From: Escherichia phage IME11
Sequence record: NC_019423.1
Strand: one strand, 5' to 3'
DNA length: 64,000 bases
Numbering within the stretch: the first letter of the stretch is position 1; every line of letters starts with the position of its first letter. Shown here one piece after another: positions 4,366 through 54,467 of this stretch. The notes beneath the pieces were generated by a model, which was not told the origin of the DNA, did not search any database, and saw only the letters and a program-made list of their open reading frames with translations. The translations under genes and the position numbers were made by a program.

Positions 4366-4809
4366 ATGGATTTGTCATTCTTAACAGGCAACCAAGCTCC
4401 ACAGCCAGCGGCTATGTCTTGGATGTCTAATAACAATCAGAATTTTAATACCCCGGCTATGAACTACAACCCAGGTGCTGCTATTGGTATGGGGGCAGGT
4501 TCGGGAGTAGCTTCCCCTACTTCTTTCATGTCTGGTTCAGCTAATCAGTTGGGCATGAACGTACCAACCTTCCAACTAGGATTAGGTGCACTTGGTTCAT
4601 TAGCTAATATTTACAGTGGTTTCCAGGCTAATAAGTTAGCCAAAGACCAGTTGAACTTTACTAAGAGTGTTACTAACACTAACCTGAATAATCAGATTAA
4701 GTCTTATAACACTGCACTGGAAGACCGTGCTCGTAGTCGTGCTACGGCAGAGAACCGTGACCAGTCTTCGGCTGATGCTTACATTGCAGCCAATAAACTA
4801 ACTCGTTAA
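4366..4809 (+). CDS. hypothetical Gly-rich virion-module protein
   Basis: Track ORF 4345-4809 begins at TTG; ATG at 4366 follows an AGGAGA RBS; low-complexity Gly/Asn-rich. Confidence 0.5.
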   Translation: MDLSFLTGNQAPQPAAMSWMSNNNQNFNTPAMNYNPGAAIGMGAGSGVASPTSFMSGSANQLGMNVPTFQLGLGALGSLANIYSGFQANKLAKDQLNFTKSVTNTNLNNQIKSYNTALEDRARSRATAENRDQSSADAYIAANKLTR

Positions 4810-27656: not shown

Positions 27657-30232
27657 GCGAATGCCTTTTGAATTGTTTGATGAACTTCTTCTGGGGTAGC
27701 GTGATTTGGAATTTCAATCTCGTTAGCCCACGTTGGGTAGAACAAGGATAGTTCCCCACCCAAACCAACTTCTGGATGAGCAATATCAGGATGGTCTTGC
27801 CAGTTAACAGCCTCAACCAAGTGCTTGTTCGTGTACTGCAAGGTATCCATGTTGTCACGAATCATGAAGTACTGGGCATCATGAATGTGAATACTAGGAC
27901 GTATATCTAATCTGAACTCACTGGCTCTGACTTTACGCATAAACTCGGAACCCGCACGGTTATTCAGTAGACACCAGCTTTGCCCTAAAGCATTACCAGC
28001 GGTTCTGCCTTCAGCTTCTGCTTCATACGGAGTCTTACATGTCCCACGTAAAACCTGAGCCAGTAAAGGAGTACGCACTCTCAAACCGAATGCGGCAGTA
28101 ACATAACCAGTTTTGGCAGCTTCGTCTAGCTTAGCCTGAACCCACCTGTCACTAACTACATAGAGGTCGTGATAACGTTTCTCTGTAGTCTTAGCCTTCT
28201 CTTCAGAGAAGCCACAGTTTTTCATTAAGCCCATATACGTACCACCATAGGTAAGCAAGAAGGTTGGAGCCTTCGAGTCACTACGCAATGATTTGTACTT
28301 ATGCTGAATGGAGTTAATGGATTCTACCGTGTCTTCAATGTCTGGCATCTGCTCACCAAAGTAAGCATATGCACGGAGACTGTGCCCATCATAGCCATCG
28401 GTATACACCTTAAGCTTCTGTGGGTCTTTAGTAGTCAGTGCAGAGATTCTGTCTTCCAGCGAGGCGAAATCCAAGCCGCAAAATACCCAGCCAGGGGCTG
28501 CTTCGAAACATTTCTTAATCTTCTTGGCATATTTAGAGCCGGATGGAATTGTTTGTAGATTTGGCTCTGAAGCCGATAGCCTACCGGAGACTGTGCCTCC
28601 CAGATTGAGGTTGCCGAATAGGTAGTGCCAACCATCCGGTCCCGGTTGGGCATTCCTGAAAGCTGGTATAAAGCTAGTGATAATCTTATCCACGAGCTTA
28701 TAGTCGATAAGTGCATTGAGCAGTTCCTTAACATCTTCACTCTGCGTATGTGTACGCAGTGCTTTAATAGTGTCACCGTCAGTAGCAGGTTGCTTGCTCT
28801 TAGTAAGACCAAGAACTGGTAAGCCAATATAATCAAATAACAGTTTTTGTAATTGTGGACCAGAGTTTGGATTAAACTCGATGTCACAATCAGCAAGTGT
28901 TACCTGCTTCTTCTTCAACTTAGCATTCTTATCATCTACCCATTCCTGACGAAGCATCAGGGTGAAATTCTTCATGAGCTTAGATTCACGAATAGTTTTC
29001 AGAGCCTGGTTCCTGTCAGTTTCCATCTCTTTAGCTACTTGGTTAACGGTTTCCATATTCATGGGCATACCGGTTAACTGCATCTGAATAATGTCTTCAC
29101 AGGCTGGTTTAAAGATGTTGTTGTAAACATCCAGTTGGTCATCAGCAATGAGAGTATCCCAGTGCTTCTCATAGGTGTACCAAGTACACAAACCATCAAT
29201 GAGGTTGTAGCGTAACAGCTGTTCATTAGGAATAAGACGGATGTCTTTAATATCATCCTGAGCATAGTTACCAGCATACTCCTGAGCCTGGTCTTTCAGA
29301 CTAAGGTGATTACCAGCACAGCTGTTAGTAGCCAGGTAGGTGATTAACTTAGTACAGTCCCAATTACGTAGCATGATATCCATGCCATGCAGTAAGCCTT
29401 CTGTATCAATCAGGTTATCCATGAATAACTGATAGATGAGTACGTACACGTCATAGCTAATGTTGTGATACATCTGCCGTTGAGTGTACTTAATAAAGAA
29501 CTCACGTAGAAGATTTCGAACAACATCATTTCTATTGATACGCCCGTATGGTGCTTCTGTAGCTCCAGGAATCGGCTCGTAGTCCACATTAAAGGCTATG
29601 CCTTGTGTCTTACTCCAACAGAATGTAATTGTTCCTATACCGGCGTTATAGTGCTTTAAACCGAATGCTTCGATGTCTATAGCCAGTGGCTTATTCATCT
29701 CAAGCAGCTGGTCTAGCCAGGCTTTAATCTTCTCTGGGGTATCCGGGTAAGCTTCAAACTCAATGATTCCTTGTCCTGGTTCAGCATACTGTCCACGAAT
29801 GTGGTTAAGTAATGCATCCATACCTTGAGCAATCTTGGATTTCACTACAGGTGGGTCATAAAAGACCTGCCTGTAGCTAGGTGCATAGATAACCTTTTGA
29901 TTACCCCATACTGAATCACAAACATAGCCAAGGTTAGCCTCTGCTTTAGCTTCTTTAGTCAGTATTTTGAAGTAATCAGAATCGGTACAGATAATGTACT
30001 GAGTTTCTGCATCATCCAGTACTTGCTGCAATTCCTGCTGTATGAACTCCTTAATCTCCCTTGCAGGAGTCTTCTTCTTGCCTGGGGCAGAATGAAGTTC
30101 GATGAAGATGAAATCTTCCATGCTTAGGTCATTAGGCAGCAGGTAGGTTTTAATCATCTCCTCCCTTCGGATTTGATGACCGAGGATAGCAATAGGATAC
30201 TTACCCGTATCTTGAGAGGTGATGTAACGCAT
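27653..30232 (-). CDS. family-A DNA polymerase with 3'-5' exonuclease domain
   Basis: 859 aa; exo motif LAIDIEAFG; Pol motif A CGLDFASLEDR, motif B KAPTFLLTYGGTYMG, motif C IHIHDAQYF; ATG with AAGGT RBS. Confidence 0.85.
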   Translation of the reverse strand: MRYITSQDTGKYPIAILGHQIRREEMIKTYLLPNDLSMEDFIFIELHSAPGKKKTPAREIKEFIQQELQQVLDDAETQYIICTDSDYFKILTKEAKAEANLGYVCDSVWGNQKVIYAPSYRQVFYDPPVVKSKIAQGMDALLNHIRGQYAEPGQGIIEFEAYPDTPEKIKAWLDQLLEMNKPLAIDIEAFGLKHYNAGIGTITFCWSKTQGIAFNVDYEPIPGATEAPYGRINRNDVVRNLLREFFIKYTQRQMYHNISYDVYVLIYQLFMDNLIDTEGLLHGMDIMLRNWDCTKLITYLATNSCAGNHLSLKDQAQEYAGNYAQDDIKDIRLIPNEQLLRYNLIDGLCTWYTYEKHWDTLIADDQLDVYNNIFKPACEDIIQMQLTGMPMNMETVNQVAKEMETDRNQALKTIRESKLMKNFTLMLRQEWVDDKNAKLKKKQVTLADCDIEFNPNSGPQLQKLLFDYIGLPVLGLTKSKQPATDGDTIKALRTHTQSEDVKELLNALIDYKLVDKIITSFIPAFRNAQPGPDGWHYLFGNLNLGGTVSGRLSASEPNLQTIPSGSKYAKKIKKCFEAAPGWVFCGLDFASLEDRISALTTKDPQKLKVYTDGYDGHSLRAYAYFGEQMPDIEDTVESINSIQHKYKSLRSDSKAPTFLLTYGGTYMGLMKNCGFSEEKAKTTEKRYHDLYVVSDRWVQAKLDEAAKTGYVTAAFGLRVRTPLLAQVLRGTCKTPYEAEAEGRTAGNALGQSWCLLNNRAGSEFMRKVRASEFRLDIRPSIHIHDAQYFMIRDNMDTLQYTNKHLVEAVNWQDHPDIAHPEVGLGGELSLFYPTWANEIEIPNHATPEEVHQTIQKAFA

Positions 30233-48697: not shown

Positions 48698-49516
48698 TTA
48701 GTCTTCATTTACTAACTCCTTATCAGCGAACTCCAGCACAGCTTTGTTGTAACTGGTTCCCTGATAGTTGATGTGGTAGCCACAGGCATATGTACGCCCA
48801 CGTTTGTCATATTTGTGAGCCAAGGAGAAGTTATTGCCTTCTTTGGTTACTAGCTCCATTACTTCCTTAGCTGTACGACTGTACTTCTCAAAGGCTTTAA
48901 CACGTTTCTCATAGTCCTGACGGGTTTCACCTTCTTTGGGTTTATCCATGTTAGGACGAGAGTCTTTTACGTAGTTAGCAACGTCCCAGTTAATGCAGAG
49001 ACGTTGATTATTCATACGGTTGATGTGGTCAAGACAGACGTCCATCTCATGATGGTTCTTCTTGAGGATGATGCTTCCTTTGCTTTCGTAGTAACCGGTG
49101 TCACGGTTACTCATAACAGGCTTAGGAGCACTTACGATAGGCAATGGGTACTGGAATGCTTCCAGTTCCATCTGTACATCTTCACCAATCTCATAAATAA
49201 CACCGAACTTGTCGATGGTAGGGTCATAGTTGAAGCAGTCATTCTCTGCCATCTTATACAGACAGTCAGCGATGTACTGAGCATCATCTGAGTGACTCAT
49301 GAGGGAGCCAATCATAGTTTGAATGTCAGCTCGTTTATGTAGGGCAATCTGCACCATTGCATCAATGAGCAGCTTATAATCAATTTCTAAATAGGCAGCG
49401 AATGCCTTAAAGTCAATTTCTTTGGAGTCCTCGAATTCCTTCCTCATGCGAGGCAGGAGCTGATTTTTATTGAATAGTACTTCGAGTTGCTTCTGATGTT
49501 CGATTGACGAGTACAT
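48698..49516 (-). CDS. putative RNAP II small subunit (by position and size)
   Basis: 272-aa ORF immediately downstream of hairpin promoter 49546-49564 and upstream of the catalytic subunit; assignment is by synteny. Confidence 0.45.
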   Translation of the reverse strand: MYSSIEHQKQLEVLFNKNQLLPRMRKEFEDSKEIDFKAFAAYLEIDYKLLIDAMVQIALHKRADIQTMIGSLMSHSDDAQYIADCLYKMAENDCFNYDPTIDKFGVIYEIGEDVQMELEAFQYPLPIVSAPKPVMSNRDTGYYESKGSIILKKNHHEMDVCLDHINRMNNQRLCINWDVANYVKDSRPNMDKPKEGETRQDYEKRVKAFEKYSRTAKEVMELVTKEGNNFSLAHKYDKRGRTYACGYHINYQGTSYNKAVLEFADKELVNED

Positions 49517-49545
49517 CGCTTATTCTCCTAAATGTGATTAATAAC

Positions 49546-49564
49546 CAAAAGCTGCGGAGCAGCT
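49546..49564 (-). promoter_or_regulatory. N4-type vRNAP hairpin promoter (template on plus strand, transcription leftward)
   Basis: CCAAAA-AGCTGC-GGA-GCAGCT: 6-bp stem, GGA loop; CC at 49545-49546 sits 11 nt 5' of the loop-centre G (template +1/+2, giving a GG-initiated RNA). Confidence 0.6.
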
Positions 49565-52289: not shown

Positions 52290-52508
52290 TCACTGGTTCC
52301 TCTTAGCATAGTCTTCTGCTTCCTTAGCCCAGAGTTGCTTACGAACTTCTTTAGCTACGATGGAAGCAAACAGACACTTAACGAATACAACTGGTAGCTT
52401 ACAGATAAGTACCAGCTTAGTGATTACCCACTTGGCTCCATTGAGGATGTAACCACGTAGGCGATACAGCACATAACAGAGTATTACAAACGCAATGAAG
52501 TCCAACAT
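52290..52508 (-). CDS. small membrane protein
   Basis: 72 aa, hydrophobic N-terminal half. Confidence 0.4.
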   Translation of the reverse strand: MLDFIAFVILCYVLYRLRGYILNGAKWVITKLVLICKLPVVFVKCLFASIVAKEVRKQLWAKEAEDYAKRNQ

Positions 52509-52512
52509 AGTC

Positions 52513-52698
52513 TTACTCCTTATGGAGTTTACGGATTTGTTTACGGGTAGGTTTAGTTACAAAGAAGTGGTCATAGCAACGACCATTTTCATCTTTTACA
52601 GATACCTGCCAACGAGCATTCAATGTCATCTTACTGCCCCAAGGCTGTAATGTAACAATCAACTTCTGTGAGTTATAACGGTTACATACTGTACGCAT
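52513..52698 (-). CDS. small basic protein, paralog of 53352-53558
   Basis: 61 aa ending KPTRKQIRKLHKE; shares N-terminal MR and C-terminal KPT(K/R)KQIRKL with its paralog. Confidence 0.45.
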   Translation of the reverse strand: MRTVCNRYNSQKLIVTLQPWGSKMTLNARWQVSVKDENGRCYDHFFVTKPTRKQIRKLHKE

Positions 52699-52803
52699 AA
52701 TGGTTACTCCTTCATCTAATATAAATCTATATCTATTGAGTTACTGTTTCAGTACCCTTCGTCTAAAGATACTCAAAAAGTAGAAATAGCTTATCGTCTA
52801 GTT

Positions 52804-52831
52804 AAAAATAAAAGACTCCCCGAAGGGAGTC
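52804..52831 (-). terminator. rho-independent terminator
   Basis: GACTCCC-cgaa-GGGAGTC preceded on plus by AAAAATAAAA (T-run on minus). Confidence 0.55.
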
Positions 52832-52841
52832 CAGTGGTTGA

Positions 52842-53318
52842 TTAGAAAGTCAGTTTACGAGCATATTTATTCTCGTCTGCTGGGATGTCAGCAGCCTCTG
52901 CTTTCACTCGACGAAGTTGAACTTGCAGGTTAATGATACCTTCTTCACCTGGTTCCAGGTTCTGAGCATATTCAATTAACTGTTCCAGCAAGTCGTTCTG
53001 TGCACAACGCATAGCACGGAAGTCAGCATTGCTGCTATTAGTAGGCAGTGGTTCCTGAGTATCCAGTGGAATACCAGTGGGCAAAGAGATGAACTTCTCT
53101 TCTTCAGAGCCTTCATTAGCTACATAACCAATGTTTAACCAGAACTGTGCCTTAGGCTTAGCAGCTTTAGATTCAGTAGAAGCAGCAGCGTTAGATTGAC
53201 CGAAAGTGAATTTTTGAATAGACATTTTGTACTCTCCAGATTTATGTGATTTACGGGTGAACTCGTCGGTGAGAACACCCAAACAAAAGGATAAAAGTTC
53301 AATGATTAGTGGATGCAT
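52842..53318 (-). CDS. hypothetical early protein (probable start near 53228)
   Basis: 158-aa track ORF; internal MSIQKF start more plausible; directly downstream of hairpin promoter 53329-53347. Confidence 0.45.
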
Positions 53319-53328
53319 TTACATCATC

Positions 53329-53347
53329 CATAAGACGCGGAGCGTCT
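53329..53347 (-). promoter_or_regulatory. N4-type vRNAP hairpin promoter
   Basis: CATCCATA-AGACGC-GGA-GCGTCT; CC at 53328-53329 is 11 nt 5' of the loop-centre G. Confidence 0.6.
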
Positions 53348-53351
53348 AGTT

Positions 53352-53558
53352 TTAGATTGCTTCTTTACGAAACTCTCTACGCAATTTACGGATTTGTTTC
53401 TTGGTAGGCTTAGCAGGGAATGAATGACAAGCAACATAGTGCTGTCTCTCTGTTACGTTAGTAATCTCTGAGAACCAAAGATTCCACTGAGCATCCATCT
53501 TACCTAACAATCCACCATTGTTACTCTTGTTTGCAAACAGGGAAGTTTGAATACGCAT
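53352..53558 (-). CDS. small basic protein, paralog of 52513-52698
   Basis: 68 aa with C-terminal KPTKKQIRKLRREFRK; flanked by two hairpin promoters. Confidence 0.45.
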   Translation of the reverse strand: MRIQTSLFANKSNNGGLLGKMDAQWNLWFSEITNVTERQHYVACHSFPAKPTKKQIRKLRREFRKEAI

Positions 53559-53587
53559 AGCTTAATCTCCAATAGTTAAATGATAGC

Positions 53588-53606
53588 CAATAGATGTGGA
53601 GCATCT
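53588..53606 (-). promoter_or_regulatory. N4-type vRNAP hairpin promoter
   Basis: AGCCAAT-AGATGT-GGA-GCATCT (one T-G in stem); CC at 53587-53588 is 11 nt 5' of the loop-centre G. Confidence 0.55.
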
Positions 53607-53815: not shown

Positions 53816-53998
53816 TTATTCCTTAGTTAGTTCAACTATAAAGTTATCTAGTTTCTGCCTAGCTATTTCACACGATTCTACTATTGATTCATAGTCATCA
53901 GGGTCTGCTGAACCAGCCCAACTATCTGCAATTGCTGATTCTGCGTAGTTACTAATTAGCTTTTTAAGCTTCTCTGCTTGCTTAGGATTAAGGGACAT
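53816..53998 (-). CDS. hypothetical small protein
   Basis: 60-aa ORF. Confidence 0.4.
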   Translation of the reverse strand: MSLNPKQAEKLKKLISNYAESAIADSWAGSADPDDYESIVESCEIARQKLDNFIVELTKE

Positions 53999-54086: not shown

Positions 54087-54410
54087 TTAGTCTTTAGTCA
54101 GGATGTCAATTACTTTAGAATATTCTGCGTTATAGATACGAGCGTTCTCTGAATCTTTGCAGAAATCTTCGATACTTTTCTTACGCAGAGTCTCGTTCCT
54201 AGCTGTTTCCTCTGCCAGTTTATTAACAAAGGTATGCATTTCTAATTTAGTACGAATGGCTTGTTTCTCTGCCATAGTACTTACATATGAATTAAGCATA
54301 CCTACTGCTTTAGTTGCTGTACCAAATGTATCTGCAACAGTAGTAGCAGCTGAGTTAACAGTACCAAGTAAAGTTCCTGCGGTCATACGTACAGTAGCGG
54401 TAGTAGTCAT
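54087..54410 (-). CDS. hypothetical early protein
   Basis: 107-aa ORF, first gene downstream of hairpin promoter 54449-54467. Confidence 0.45.
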   Translation of the reverse strand: MTTTATVRMTAGTLLGTVNSAATTVADTFGTATKAVGMLNSYVSTMAEKQAIRTKLEMHTFVNKLAEETARNETLRKKSIEDFCKDSENARIYNAEYSKVIDILTKD

Positions 54411-54448
54411 GATGATAGCTCCAATAGTTGATGATAGGACGACATGTC

Positions 54449-54467
54449 CATAACATGCGGAGCATGT
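54449..54467 (-). promoter_or_regulatory. N4-type vRNAP hairpin promoter (the one furthest to the right in this window)
   Basis: GTCCATA-ACATGC-GGA-GCATGT; CC at 54448-54449 is 11 nt 5' of the loop-centre G. Confidence 0.6.

What the first reader, a model, noticed from the sequence alone, without database searches (positions are those of the whole stretch)
52513..53558. Two paralogous small basic proteins bracketing hairpin promoters
ORFs 53352-53558 and 52513-52698 both start MR and end with KPT(K/R)KQIRKL followed by basic residues. The first is flanked on both sides by hairpin promoters. A duplicated, lysine/arginine-rich C-terminal motif suggests nucleic-acid or polymerase binding.
Basis: seen in the sequence. 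Interest (0 to 1): 0.45.

Follow-up and report, generated by a model that had tools for sequence, protein, structure and literature searches.

The report
Two TifA-like anti-defence genes in phage
The two small basic proteins are real, related early genes of an N4-like coliphage and belong to the known TifA family (phage T4 gp61.4), small RNA-binding proteins that T4 uses to disarm a bacterial RNase toxin, so this is a recognisable but untested pair of new members, not a new kind of system.

Summary
ORF A (53352-53558, minus strand, 68 aa) and ORF B (52513-52698, minus strand, 61 aa) are basic (pI 10.4 and 10.3). They share KPT(K/R)KQIRKL and are homologous over about 40 residues (BLASTP E 7e-7; hhalign 96%, E 1.6e-9). 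Both exceed the Pfam DUF7279 gathering score.

ORF A sits between two N4-type virion-RNA-polymerase hairpin promoters. The motif CCAWWA-stem-GGA-stem occurs four times in the window, all on the template strand; about 0.003 are expected by chance.

DUF7279 also contains T4 gp61.4, now called TifA. TifA is an early, RNA-binding inhibitor of the type III toxin ToxN. It needs the same Pro-Thr-capped basic C-terminal helix (published mutagenesis). ORF A falls in the same PHROG as T4 TifA. ORF B belongs to a divergent subfamily found only in N4-like phages. AlphaFold models (pLDDT 93 and 90) give the published TifA architecture.

"Polymerase binding" is not: the family also occurs in T4-like, FelixO1-like and Chaseviridae phages, which are not N4-like.

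The target is unproven. Published tests found that TifA homologs outside T2/T4/T6/RB69, including one from an N4-like phage, neutralised no tested toxin.

Verdict: new members of a known kind, modest interest.

The parts
53352..53558 (-). ORF A, 68 aa. A TifA-family (Pfam DUF7279) small basic protein in the same PHROG (phrog_2375) as T4 TifA/gp61.4. The Pro-Thr helix cap is P51-T52; the basic helix spans residues 53-67.
   Evidence: phrog_2375, E 2.8e-23; PF23945, 74 bits; AF2 pLDDT 92.7: strands 2-10, 13-16, 19-21, 24-32, 42-47, helix 53-67.
52513..52698 (-). ORF B, 61 aa. A divergent TifA-family paralog (phrog_7840, the G7C gp2.2 type) with P50-T51 and a basic helix at 52-60. It has an extra helix at 11-20 and a tight turn in place of the variable loop. 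Its stop codon overlaps the Shine-Dalgarno sequence of the next gene.
   Evidence: phrog_7840, E 1e-32; phrog_2375, E 8e-4; PF23945, 39 bits; 56 N4-like phage records; AF2 pLDDT 90.1.
53587..53605 (-). N4-type vRNAP hairpin promoter driving ORF A. The template strand is the + strand: CC AATA GATGT GGA GCATC. The inferred start site is C53588, giving a 30-nt leader. The loop-closing pair is a T.G wobble.
   Evidence: weakest fold, -4.1 kcal/mol. The promoter is conserved with stem covariation in SP5M, St11Ph5 and G7C.
53328..53346 (-). N4 P2-equivalent vRNAP hairpin promoter, immediately downstream of ORF A and upstream of the gp2 homolog: CC ATAA GACGC GGA GCGTC. The inferred start site is C53329.
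   Evidence: same position as N4 P2 at N4 nt 571; -5.6 kcal/mol, z -3.75.
52842..53224 (-). Homolog of N4 gp2, the ssDNA-binding cofactor of RNAPII. It lies between the two paralogs. The mechanical ORF extends to 53318, but the family alignment begins at the internal ATG at 53224, which has a GGAG upstream.
   Evidence: (phrog_4099, residues 32-158); PMC4496689.
52813..52832 (-). Intrinsic terminator-like hairpin plus T-run after gp2, upstream of ORF B.
   Evidence: Annotated as a terminator at the homologous place in SP5M.
54448..54466 (-). P1-equivalent vRNAP hairpin promoter upstream of the gp1 homolog (54087-54410).
49545..49563 (-). P3-equivalent vRNAP hairpin promoter upstream of the gp15-like RNAPII subunit gene (48698-49516). 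The 19-nt promoter motif (CCAAAA GCTGC GGA GCAGC) is identical to that upstream of N4 gp15.
   Evidence: (N4 nt 4560).

Best explanation
Both ORFs are genuine early genes of a Gamaleyavirus (a G7C-like, N4-like coliphage). They encode two diverged paralogs of the TifA family (Pfam DUF7279; prototype T4 gp61.4).

By homology, each is a roughly 7-kDa protein made of a small beta-sheet packed against a Pro-Thr-capped, solvent-exposed basic C-terminal helix that binds RNA. The variable N-terminal sheet and loop would recognise a host defence RNase, with ToxN-type type III toxins the only known target. The toxin is then trapped in an inactive ribonucleoprotein on abundant cellular RNA, which protects phage transcripts.

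ORF A has its own virion-RNA-polymerase hairpin promoter, so it should be made in the first moments of infection. ORF B is presumably made by read-through of the gp2 terminator or from an unrecognised promoter. The two copies differ exactly where published work places toxin specificity, so they most likely cover different toxin variants.

Shown here: the ORFs, their homology, family membership, conserved functional residues, predicted fold and promoter motifs. Inferred: RNA binding, early expression, an anti-toxin role and the identity of the target.
For: Family and homology:
- Both ORFs hit PF23945 above the gathering score.
- T4 gp61.4, JS98 gp61.4, Moogle gp4 and ST32 gp17 hit the same model.
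- T4 and RB69 TifA fall in phrog_2375, which is ORF A's best PHROG over its full length.
- gp61.4 is TifA, an inhibitor of ToxN expressed from an early promoter (PMC9391042).

Functional residues and fold:
- TifA binds RNA through the C-terminal basic helix. The PT cap and K55/R56/R59 are needed for RNA binding, ToxN co-precipitation and rescue (PMC10853763).
- The equivalent residues are P51 T52 K53 K54 R57 in ORF A and P50 T51 R52 K53 R56 in ORF B. P, T, Q and R are invariant across ten diverse members.
- AF2 models with pLDDT 92.7 and 90.1 show a beta-sheet plus C-terminal helix, as published for TifA.
- Structure searches of BFVD return only family members, including an 80-residue uncharacterised protein of phage EcS1, a phage whose TifA homolog was in the published test panel.

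Expression and ecology:
- Early expression is inferred from hairpin promoters with -12A, -11G, -10G, -8G and +1C, as vRNAP requires.
- Patterns typical of an arms race are present. The gene slot between the two promoters holds an unrelated gene in G7C and St11Ph5. Phage ST4 shares only the helix-coding 3' end. Both subfamilies have alternative C-terminal tails.
- ToxN homologs are present on 55 Escherichia plasmid records.
Against: No experiment exists for either subfamily.

In the published neutralisation screen, the six homologs outside T2/T4/T6/RB69 neutralised none of the six ToxN homologs or TenpN tested. These included JS98 gp61.4 (about 40% identical to ORF A, in the same PHROG) and the homolog from the N4-like Pectobacterium phage CB4.

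ORF B lacks the roughly 20-residue loop that the published model places over the ToxN active site, and its basic helix is short.

ToxIN is triggered by phage shut-off of host transcription. N4-type phages depend on host RNA polymerase for late genes, so it is unclear that they trigger ToxIN at all.

There is no dmd or other anti-TA-island neighbour here.

ORF A's own promoter carries a T.G at the loop-closing pair, and a C:G pair there is reported as required for hairpin extrusion.
Confidence: 0.6

Rival explanations
1. The proteins have the TifA fold but a different job. They are small RNA-binding early proteins that do not target ToxN. They might instead neutralise another host RNase or defence effector, or act generally on RNA, for example by shielding phage mRNA or binding 16S rRNA or the ribosome to bias translation.
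For: Most tested TifA homologs, including one from an N4-like phage, neutralised no ToxN or TenpN. TifA binds RNA, ssDNA and dsDNA without evident sequence specificity and associates with 16S rRNA. ORF B's subfamily has lost the variable loop and is confined to N4-like phages.
Against: The only characterised members act through a specific protein-protein contact with ToxN, not by coating RNA. The patchy, swap-prone distribution and intragenic mosaicism fit a strain-specific defence target better than a housekeeping RNA role. N4 itself does without the family.
Confidence: 0.3
2. The basic motif binds a polymerase (vRNAP, RNAPII or host RNAP) or the hairpin-promoter DNA, and regulates the N4-type early-to-middle transcription programme.
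For: The genes flank gp2, the RNAPII cofactor, and sit among vRNAP promoters. TifA binds ssDNA and dsDNA in vitro with RNA-like affinity. The model for N4 middle transcription still has an unidentified promoter-melting protein 'X'.
Against: The family is present in T4-like, FelixO1-like and Chaseviridae phages and a 249-kb Enterobacter phage, none of which is N4-like. It is absent from the annotated small early ORFs of N4. ORF A's slot holds an unrelated gene in G7C and St11Ph5, so it cannot be a core transcription factor. Only six phage records carry this ORF A allele.
Confidence: 0.07
3. The ORFs are spurious, or share a low-complexity basic motif by chance.
For: The ORFs are short. Pairwise BLAST aligns only 18 residues.
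Against: Both score above the Pfam gathering threshold. hhalign gives E 1.6e-9. Conserved homologs number in the dozens, with 54-98% identity and preserved reading frames. Both have strong ribosome-binding sites and confident AF2 folds.
Confidence: 0.01

Closest known systems
TifA (ToxN inhibitory factor A; T4 gp61.4, RB69 TifA), Pfam DUF7279/PF23945
   Same: Same Pfam family for both ORFs, and the same PHROG (phrog_2375) for ORF A. Size is similar (61-85 aa). Both have a beta-sheet plus a Pro-Thr-capped basic C-terminal helix, with the mutationally defined RNA-binding residues conserved. Both are early genes, and the N-terminal/loop region is variable.
   Different: Only about 22-24% overall identity to T4 and RB69 TifA. 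These genes are driven by (A) or sit near (B) vRNAP hairpin promoters in an N4-like podovirus, rather than lying in the dmd-tifA operon of the T-even 'anti-TA island'. ORF B has an extra helix, no long loop and a shorter basic helix. Activity against any toxin is untested.
TifA homolog of Pectobacterium phage vB_PatP_CB4 (N4-like) and JS98 gp61.4
   Same: These are family members outside the T2/T4/T6/RB69 group. CB4 is also a Schitoviridae phage. JS98 gp61.4 is about 40% identical to ORF A, and JS98 also carries two family paralogs (gp61.4 and orf29).
   Different: They were tested and neutralised none of the ToxN or TenpN toxins tried, so their targets are unknown. They belong to different PHROG subgroups from ORF B (CB4 is in phrog_12748; JS98 orf29 is in phrog_3272).
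N4 vRNAP early promoters P1, P2 and P3
   Same: A 5-6 bp stem with a GGA loop on the template strand. They carry -12A, -11G, -10G, -8G and +1C, preceded by CCA(A/T)(A/T)A. The positions upstream of gp1, gp2 and gp15 are conserved.
   Different: This phage and its Gamaleyavirus relatives have a fourth such promoter, dedicated to the variable gene slot that here holds ORF A. The copy in this window has a T.G loop-closing wobble.
Dmd (T4 gp61.5) and AdfA (T4 gp61.2), phage-encoded anti-toxin proteins
   Same: They are small early phage proteins that neutralise toxin-antitoxin defence toxins.
   Different: No sequence relationship was seen (no such hits). They act by direct protein-protein inhibition without an RNA partner.

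Membership tests
TifA / DUF7279 (PF23945) | Match to the Pfam family model above its gathering score (24.5 bits) | tested here: met
   ORF A scores 74.0 bits and ORF B 39.0 bits. T4 gp61.4 scores 72.7 bits against the same model.
TifA / DUF7279 (PF23945) | Conserved Pro-Thr helix cap immediately followed by a cluster of basic residues (T4/RB69 P53 T54 K55 R56 R59) | tested here: met
   ORF A has P51 T52 K53 K54 R57. ORF B has P50 T51 R52 K53 R56. P, T, Q and R are invariant in alignment A5. The motif is defined in PMC10853763.
TifA / DUF7279 (PF23945) | [quoted passage not shown] | tested here: met
   AF2 gives ORF A pLDDT 92.7 and ORF B pLDDT 90.1, both with strands followed by a C-terminal helix.
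TifA / DUF7279 (PF23945) | A loop of about 20 residues between the last two strands, predicted to reach the ToxN active site (described as variable, not conserved family-wide) | tested here: not met
   ORF A has a loop of about 9 residues (33-41). ORF B has a tight turn of about 5 residues (36-40). The paper itself says this region is not conserved across the family, so this bears on ToxN specificity, not on family membership.
TifA / DUF7279 (PF23945) | Same remote-homology cluster (PHROG) as T4 TifA | tested here: inconclusive
   ORF A is met: phrog_2375 at E 2.8e-23, the best family for T4, RB69 and JS98 TifA. ORF B's best family is phrog_7840, and phrog_2375 scores only E 8e-4.
TifA / DUF7279 (PF23945) | Expressed early in infection | tested here: inconclusive
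   A vRNAP early-promoter motif lies 30 nt upstream of ORF A but has a T.G closing pair. ORF B lies in the early region behind a terminator, with no recognised promoter. No expression data are available.
TifA / DUF7279 (PF23945) | Binds RNA | not testable with these tools
   This needs purified protein, for example fluorescence polarisation or the A260/A280 ratio of the purified protein, as in PMC10853763.
TifA / DUF7279 (PF23945) | Neutralises ToxN and restores plating on toxIN+ hosts | not testable with these tools
   This needs co-expression and plaque assays. Six homologs outside T2/T4/T6/RB69 failed in the published screen.
TifA / DUF7279 (PF23945) | Synteny with dmd (the T-even anti-TA island) | tested here: not met
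   None of the seven neighbouring early ORFs scanned has a Dmd or AdfA match. This synteny is a T-even feature and does not define the family.
N4-type vRNAP hairpin promoter | Template-strand hairpin with a 5-7 bp stem and a 3-nt loop centred at -11, with -11A/G, -10G, -8G and +1C | tested here: met
   All four sites have the GGA loop, -8G and +1C. Three fold as a 6-bp stem with a 3-nt loop. The requirements are taken from PMC4496689.
N4-type vRNAP hairpin promoter | C:G loop-closing base pair | tested here: inconclusive
   Met at 53328, 54448 and 49545. The promoter upstream of ORF A (53587) has T.G. Relatives have C:G (SP5M, St11Ph5) or T:A (G7C) at that pair.
N4-type vRNAP hairpin promoter | Transcription initiation by vRNAP | not testable with these tools
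   This needs run-off transcription with mini-vRNAP or 5'-end mapping in infected cells.

The most novel reading that the evidence does not exclude
ORF B's subfamily (phrog_7840) is found in most Gamaleyavirus-like and related N4-like phages and in no other group. It has replaced the toxin-facing loop with a tight turn and gained an N-terminal helix, and in many relatives a CxxC...HxxC tail. It may have been re-purposed from counter-defence to a function specific to the N4 lifestyle. One example would be binding the single-stranded or hairpin nucleic acids of the early/middle transcription switch next to gp2. Another would be neutralising a so far unknown RNase defence that targets N4-like phages.
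Probability: 0.12. Interest if true: 0.6.

Novelty: new member of a known kind. Interest (0 to 1): 0.3.

Why it matters
This assigns a concrete, testable function to two "hypothetical" early genes that recur in therapeutic-candidate N4-like coliphages (the G7C group). They are probably RNA-dependent inhibitors of host RNase toxins.

The two diverged copies, and the promoter-bounded swappable slot that holds one of them, would give a natural system for studying how TifA specificity evolves. They could also reveal which defence systems limit the host range of N4-like phages.

The work also shows that Pfam DUF7279 and six PHROG families, all still labelled "unknown function", correspond to the published TifA family.

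Tried and rejected
- Sequence search of the PDB gave only noise (best E 0.0057, to designed ankyrin repeats).
- BFVD fold searches returned only unannotated family members.
- NCBIfam has no model for the family.
- A literature search for "DUF7279" found nothing. The link to TifA came from finding that JS98 and T4 gp61.4 belong to the family.
- I considered that ORF A lies in the terminal repeat, because G7C annotates nt 1-1160 as "contains terminal repeat". However, the ORF A sequence occurs only once in each linear relative's record, so this is not supported.
- I looked for a hairpin promoter upstream of ORF B and found none. Only a terminator and about 110 nt of spacer are there.
- The annotated small early ORFs of N4 (gp3-gp8, gp10, gp13) were scanned and none is a family member.
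- A search for papers on ToxIN and phage N4 was swamped by the word "toxin".

Full report
**Context**

The window is a Gamaleyavirus (a G7C-like, N4-like coliphage; Schitoviridae). Region 51.5-55.0 kb matches the left-end early region of SP5M, St11Ph5, Mimir124, G7C and about 70 other records at 88-95% identity. The early genes run on the minus strand.

In minus-strand order the locus reads:
- a gp1 homolog (54410-54087);
- two small ORFs;
- ORF A (53558-53352);
- the homolog of N4 gp2, the ssDNA-binding cofactor of RNAPII (53224-52842);
- a terminator (52832-52813);
- ORF B (52698-52513);
- further small ORFs.

**The observation**

They are basic, with pI 10.4 and 10.3. Each is preceded by a good ribosome-binding site.

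The similarity is significant and is not limited to the decapeptide:
- BLASTP gives E 7e-7.
- Alignments of each ORF's own homologs compare at hhalign probability 96.3%, E 1.6e-9, over about 40 residues.
- Both exceed the gathering score of Pfam DUF7279/PF23945, at 74 and 39 bits against a cut-off of 24.5.
- In a 52-member alignment, W25 and P51 are invariant and K50, T52, Q55 and R57 are nearly so.

An exhaustive HMMER search of 1.84 billion cluster representatives found only 44 with E up to 0.001. The family is therefore small; its named members found here are all phage proteins.

**The hairpin promoters**

I searched for perfect 5-bp stems with 3-nt loops and found three GGA-loop hairpins on the + strand, plus a fourth with one wobble. 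All four share the form CC-A(A/T)(A/T)A-stem-GGA-stem. This form occurs 4 times on the + strand, 0 times on the - strand, and 0.003 times per simulated window.

The + strand is the template for the minus-strand early genes, and that is the strand on which N4 promoter hairpins are recognised. The sites carry -12A, -11G, -10G, -8G and +1C, the bases reported as recognised by vRNAP (PMC4496689).

The same scan recovers the N4 P2 sequence upstream of N4 gp2 and a site upstream of N4 gp15. It also finds positionally equivalent sites in SP5M, St11Ph5 and G7C. In the window:
- 54448 corresponds to P1 (upstream of gp1);
- 53328 corresponds to P2 (upstream of gp2);
- 49545 corresponds to P3 (upstream of the gp15-like gene);
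- 53587 is an extra promoter, found here in the four Gamaleyaviruses compared and absent from the corresponding place in N4, 30 nt upstream of ORF A.

The stem of the extra promoter covaries between phages: GAAGC/GCTTC, GCTGT/ACAGC, and here GATGT/GCATC with a T.G closing pair. The copy in this window folds least well. ORF B has no hairpin promoter of its own.

**What the proteins are**

tblastn with ORF A found relatives in three kinds of place:
- the same slot of a few other N4-like phages;
- FelixO1-like phages (Moogle, Sf17), Chaseviridae (ST32) and a 249-kb Enterobacter phage;
- T-even-like phages, where the hit is annotated gp61.4.

T4 gp61.4 itself scores 72.7 bits against PF23945. It falls in phrog_2375, which is ORF A's best PHROG.

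T4 gene 61.4 was renamed tifA. It is an early gene whose 85-aa product inhibits the type III toxin ToxN (PMC9391042). Follow-up work showed four things (PMC10853763):
- A conserved Pro-Thr caps that helix.
- The mutants P53A/T54A and K55A/R56A/R59A abolish RNA binding, ToxN co-precipitation and rescue.
- TifA traps ToxN in an RNA-protein complex, notably on 16S rRNA.

In ORF A it is P51 T52 K53 K54 Q55 I56 R57. In ORF B it is P50 T51 R52 K53 Q54 I55 R56.

AlphaFold models built from the family alignment are confident (pLDDT 92.7 and 90.1). Both have the beta-sheet plus C-terminal-helix architecture.

The two ORFs differ in the N-terminal and loop region:
- ORF A has an extra beta-hairpin and a loop of about 9 residues.
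- ORF B has a helix at 11-20, a tight turn and a shorter basic helix.

The published work identifies that region as the likely determinant of toxin specificity.

**Function and mechanism**

The best-supported reading has three parts. Both proteins are early counter-defence factors. They bind RNA through the shared helix. They use their diverged N-terminal surfaces to capture a host RNase toxin.

Several features fit a gene under strain-specific selection:
- The DNA between the two promoters is a swappable cassette. Window and SP5M carry the TifA-like gene, while St11Ph5 and G7C carry an unrelated phrog_20790 gene. Homology resumes exactly at the promoter hairpins.
- Only six phage records have this ORF A allele. 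One of them, ST4, shares just the 3' 70 nt that encode the helix.
- Both subfamilies exist in long forms with different C-terminal tails.
- JS98 likewise carries two family paralogs.
- ToxN genes occur on Escherichia plasmids.

**Caveats**

- The published screen found that the six homologs outside T2/T4/T6/RB69 neutralised none of the toxins tried. These included JS98 gp61.4 and the homolog from the N4-like phage CB4.
- ToxIN is activated by phage shut-off of host transcription. N4-type phages need host RNA polymerase late in infection.
- ORF B lacks the loop modelled over the ToxN active site.

I therefore rate family membership as near-certain, RNA binding as likely, and the ToxN target as only one possibility.

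Nucleic-acid binding is supported by homology. Polymerase or promoter binding is not supported. The family is found in phages that are not N4-like, the annotated small early ORFs of N4 include no member, and ORF A's slot is dispensable in close relatives.

**Other searches**

**Verdict**

The proteins are new, untested members of the known TifA family, in an arrangement of mild interest: two diverged paralogs, one of them in a promoter-bounded swappable immediate-early slot.

Noticed in passing
window 53347-53592 (compare L002:3540-3920 and L004:770-1290): The segment between the two hairpin promoters behaves as an exchangeable cassette. Window and SP5M carry the TifA-like gene. St11Ph5 and G7C carry an unrelated 71-aa gene (phrog_20790). 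Nucleotide homology resumes exactly at the hairpins.
   Followed up: yes
window 53593-53605; L001:3331, L002:3850, L004:808: The stem of the extra promoter covaries between phages: GAAGC/GCTTC, GATGT/GCATC (T.G) and GCTGT/ACAGC. The window's copy has the wobble at the loop-closing pair and the weakest predicted DNA hairpin (-4.1 kcal/mol, folding with a 5-nt loop).
   Followed up: partly
window 49545-49563: A fourth vRNAP-type hairpin promoter lies upstream of the gp15-like RNAPII subunit gene (48698-49516, minus strand). Its 19-nt promoter motif (CCAAAA GCTGC GGA GCAGC) is identical to the site upstream of N4 gp15.
   Followed up: partly
L005:3516-3737 (phage JS98 orf29) and L005:2486-2725 (gp61.4): The T4-like phage JS98 also has two DUF7279/TifA-family genes about 800 bp apart, in the region between the gene 41 helicase and gene 61 primase. 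They fall in phrog_2375 and phrog_3272. Carrying more than one paralog is therefore not unique to this window.
   Followed up: partly
P0013, P0014, P0021, P0128 and L002:2651-2878 (relatives of ORF B); P0001 and P0005 (relatives of ORF A): Many ORF B relatives are 98 aa long, with an added C-terminal CYECGKRI...NYAHxDC (CxxC...HxxC, zinc-ribbon-like) tail. Some ORF A relatives are 85 aa with an acidic, aromatic tail. The window has the short form of both.
   Followed up: no
window 53352-53421; phage ST4 (OM982646) 27946-28015: Phage ST4 shares only the 3' 70 nt of ORF A (98.6% identity), the part encoding the basic helix. Its N-terminal half is about 50% identical at protein level. This is an intragenic mosaic.
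   Followed up: partly
window 52842-53318: The N4 gp2 homolog is annotated in several relatives as 'RNA polymerase RNAP1 subunit A', and in K57alpha1.2 the region carries other unrelated product names. The mechanical ORF starts at 53318, but the family alignment and a GGAG site point to the ATG at 53224.
   Followed up: partly
window 53816-53998 (minus strand): A 60-aa ORF between gp1 and ORF A matches Pfam DUF7438 (51 bits), with a weak PHROG hit to a family labelled 'helicase loader' (E 1.4e-4).
   Followed up: no
window 52290-52508 (minus strand): A 72-aa hydrophobic, membrane-like ORF (phrog_13158) starts 5 nt after the ORF B stop codon. Its Shine-Dalgarno sequence overlaps the last codons of ORF B, which suggests translational coupling.
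   Followed up: no
window 52538-52552 and 53392-53406: The two paralogs share an identical 15-nt stretch (AAACAAATCCGTAAA). They are identical at 26 of 33 nt across the motif, including the synonymous positions of the shared P, T, K, Q, I, R and K codons. This was read from the sequence and not tested against codon usage.
   Followed up: no
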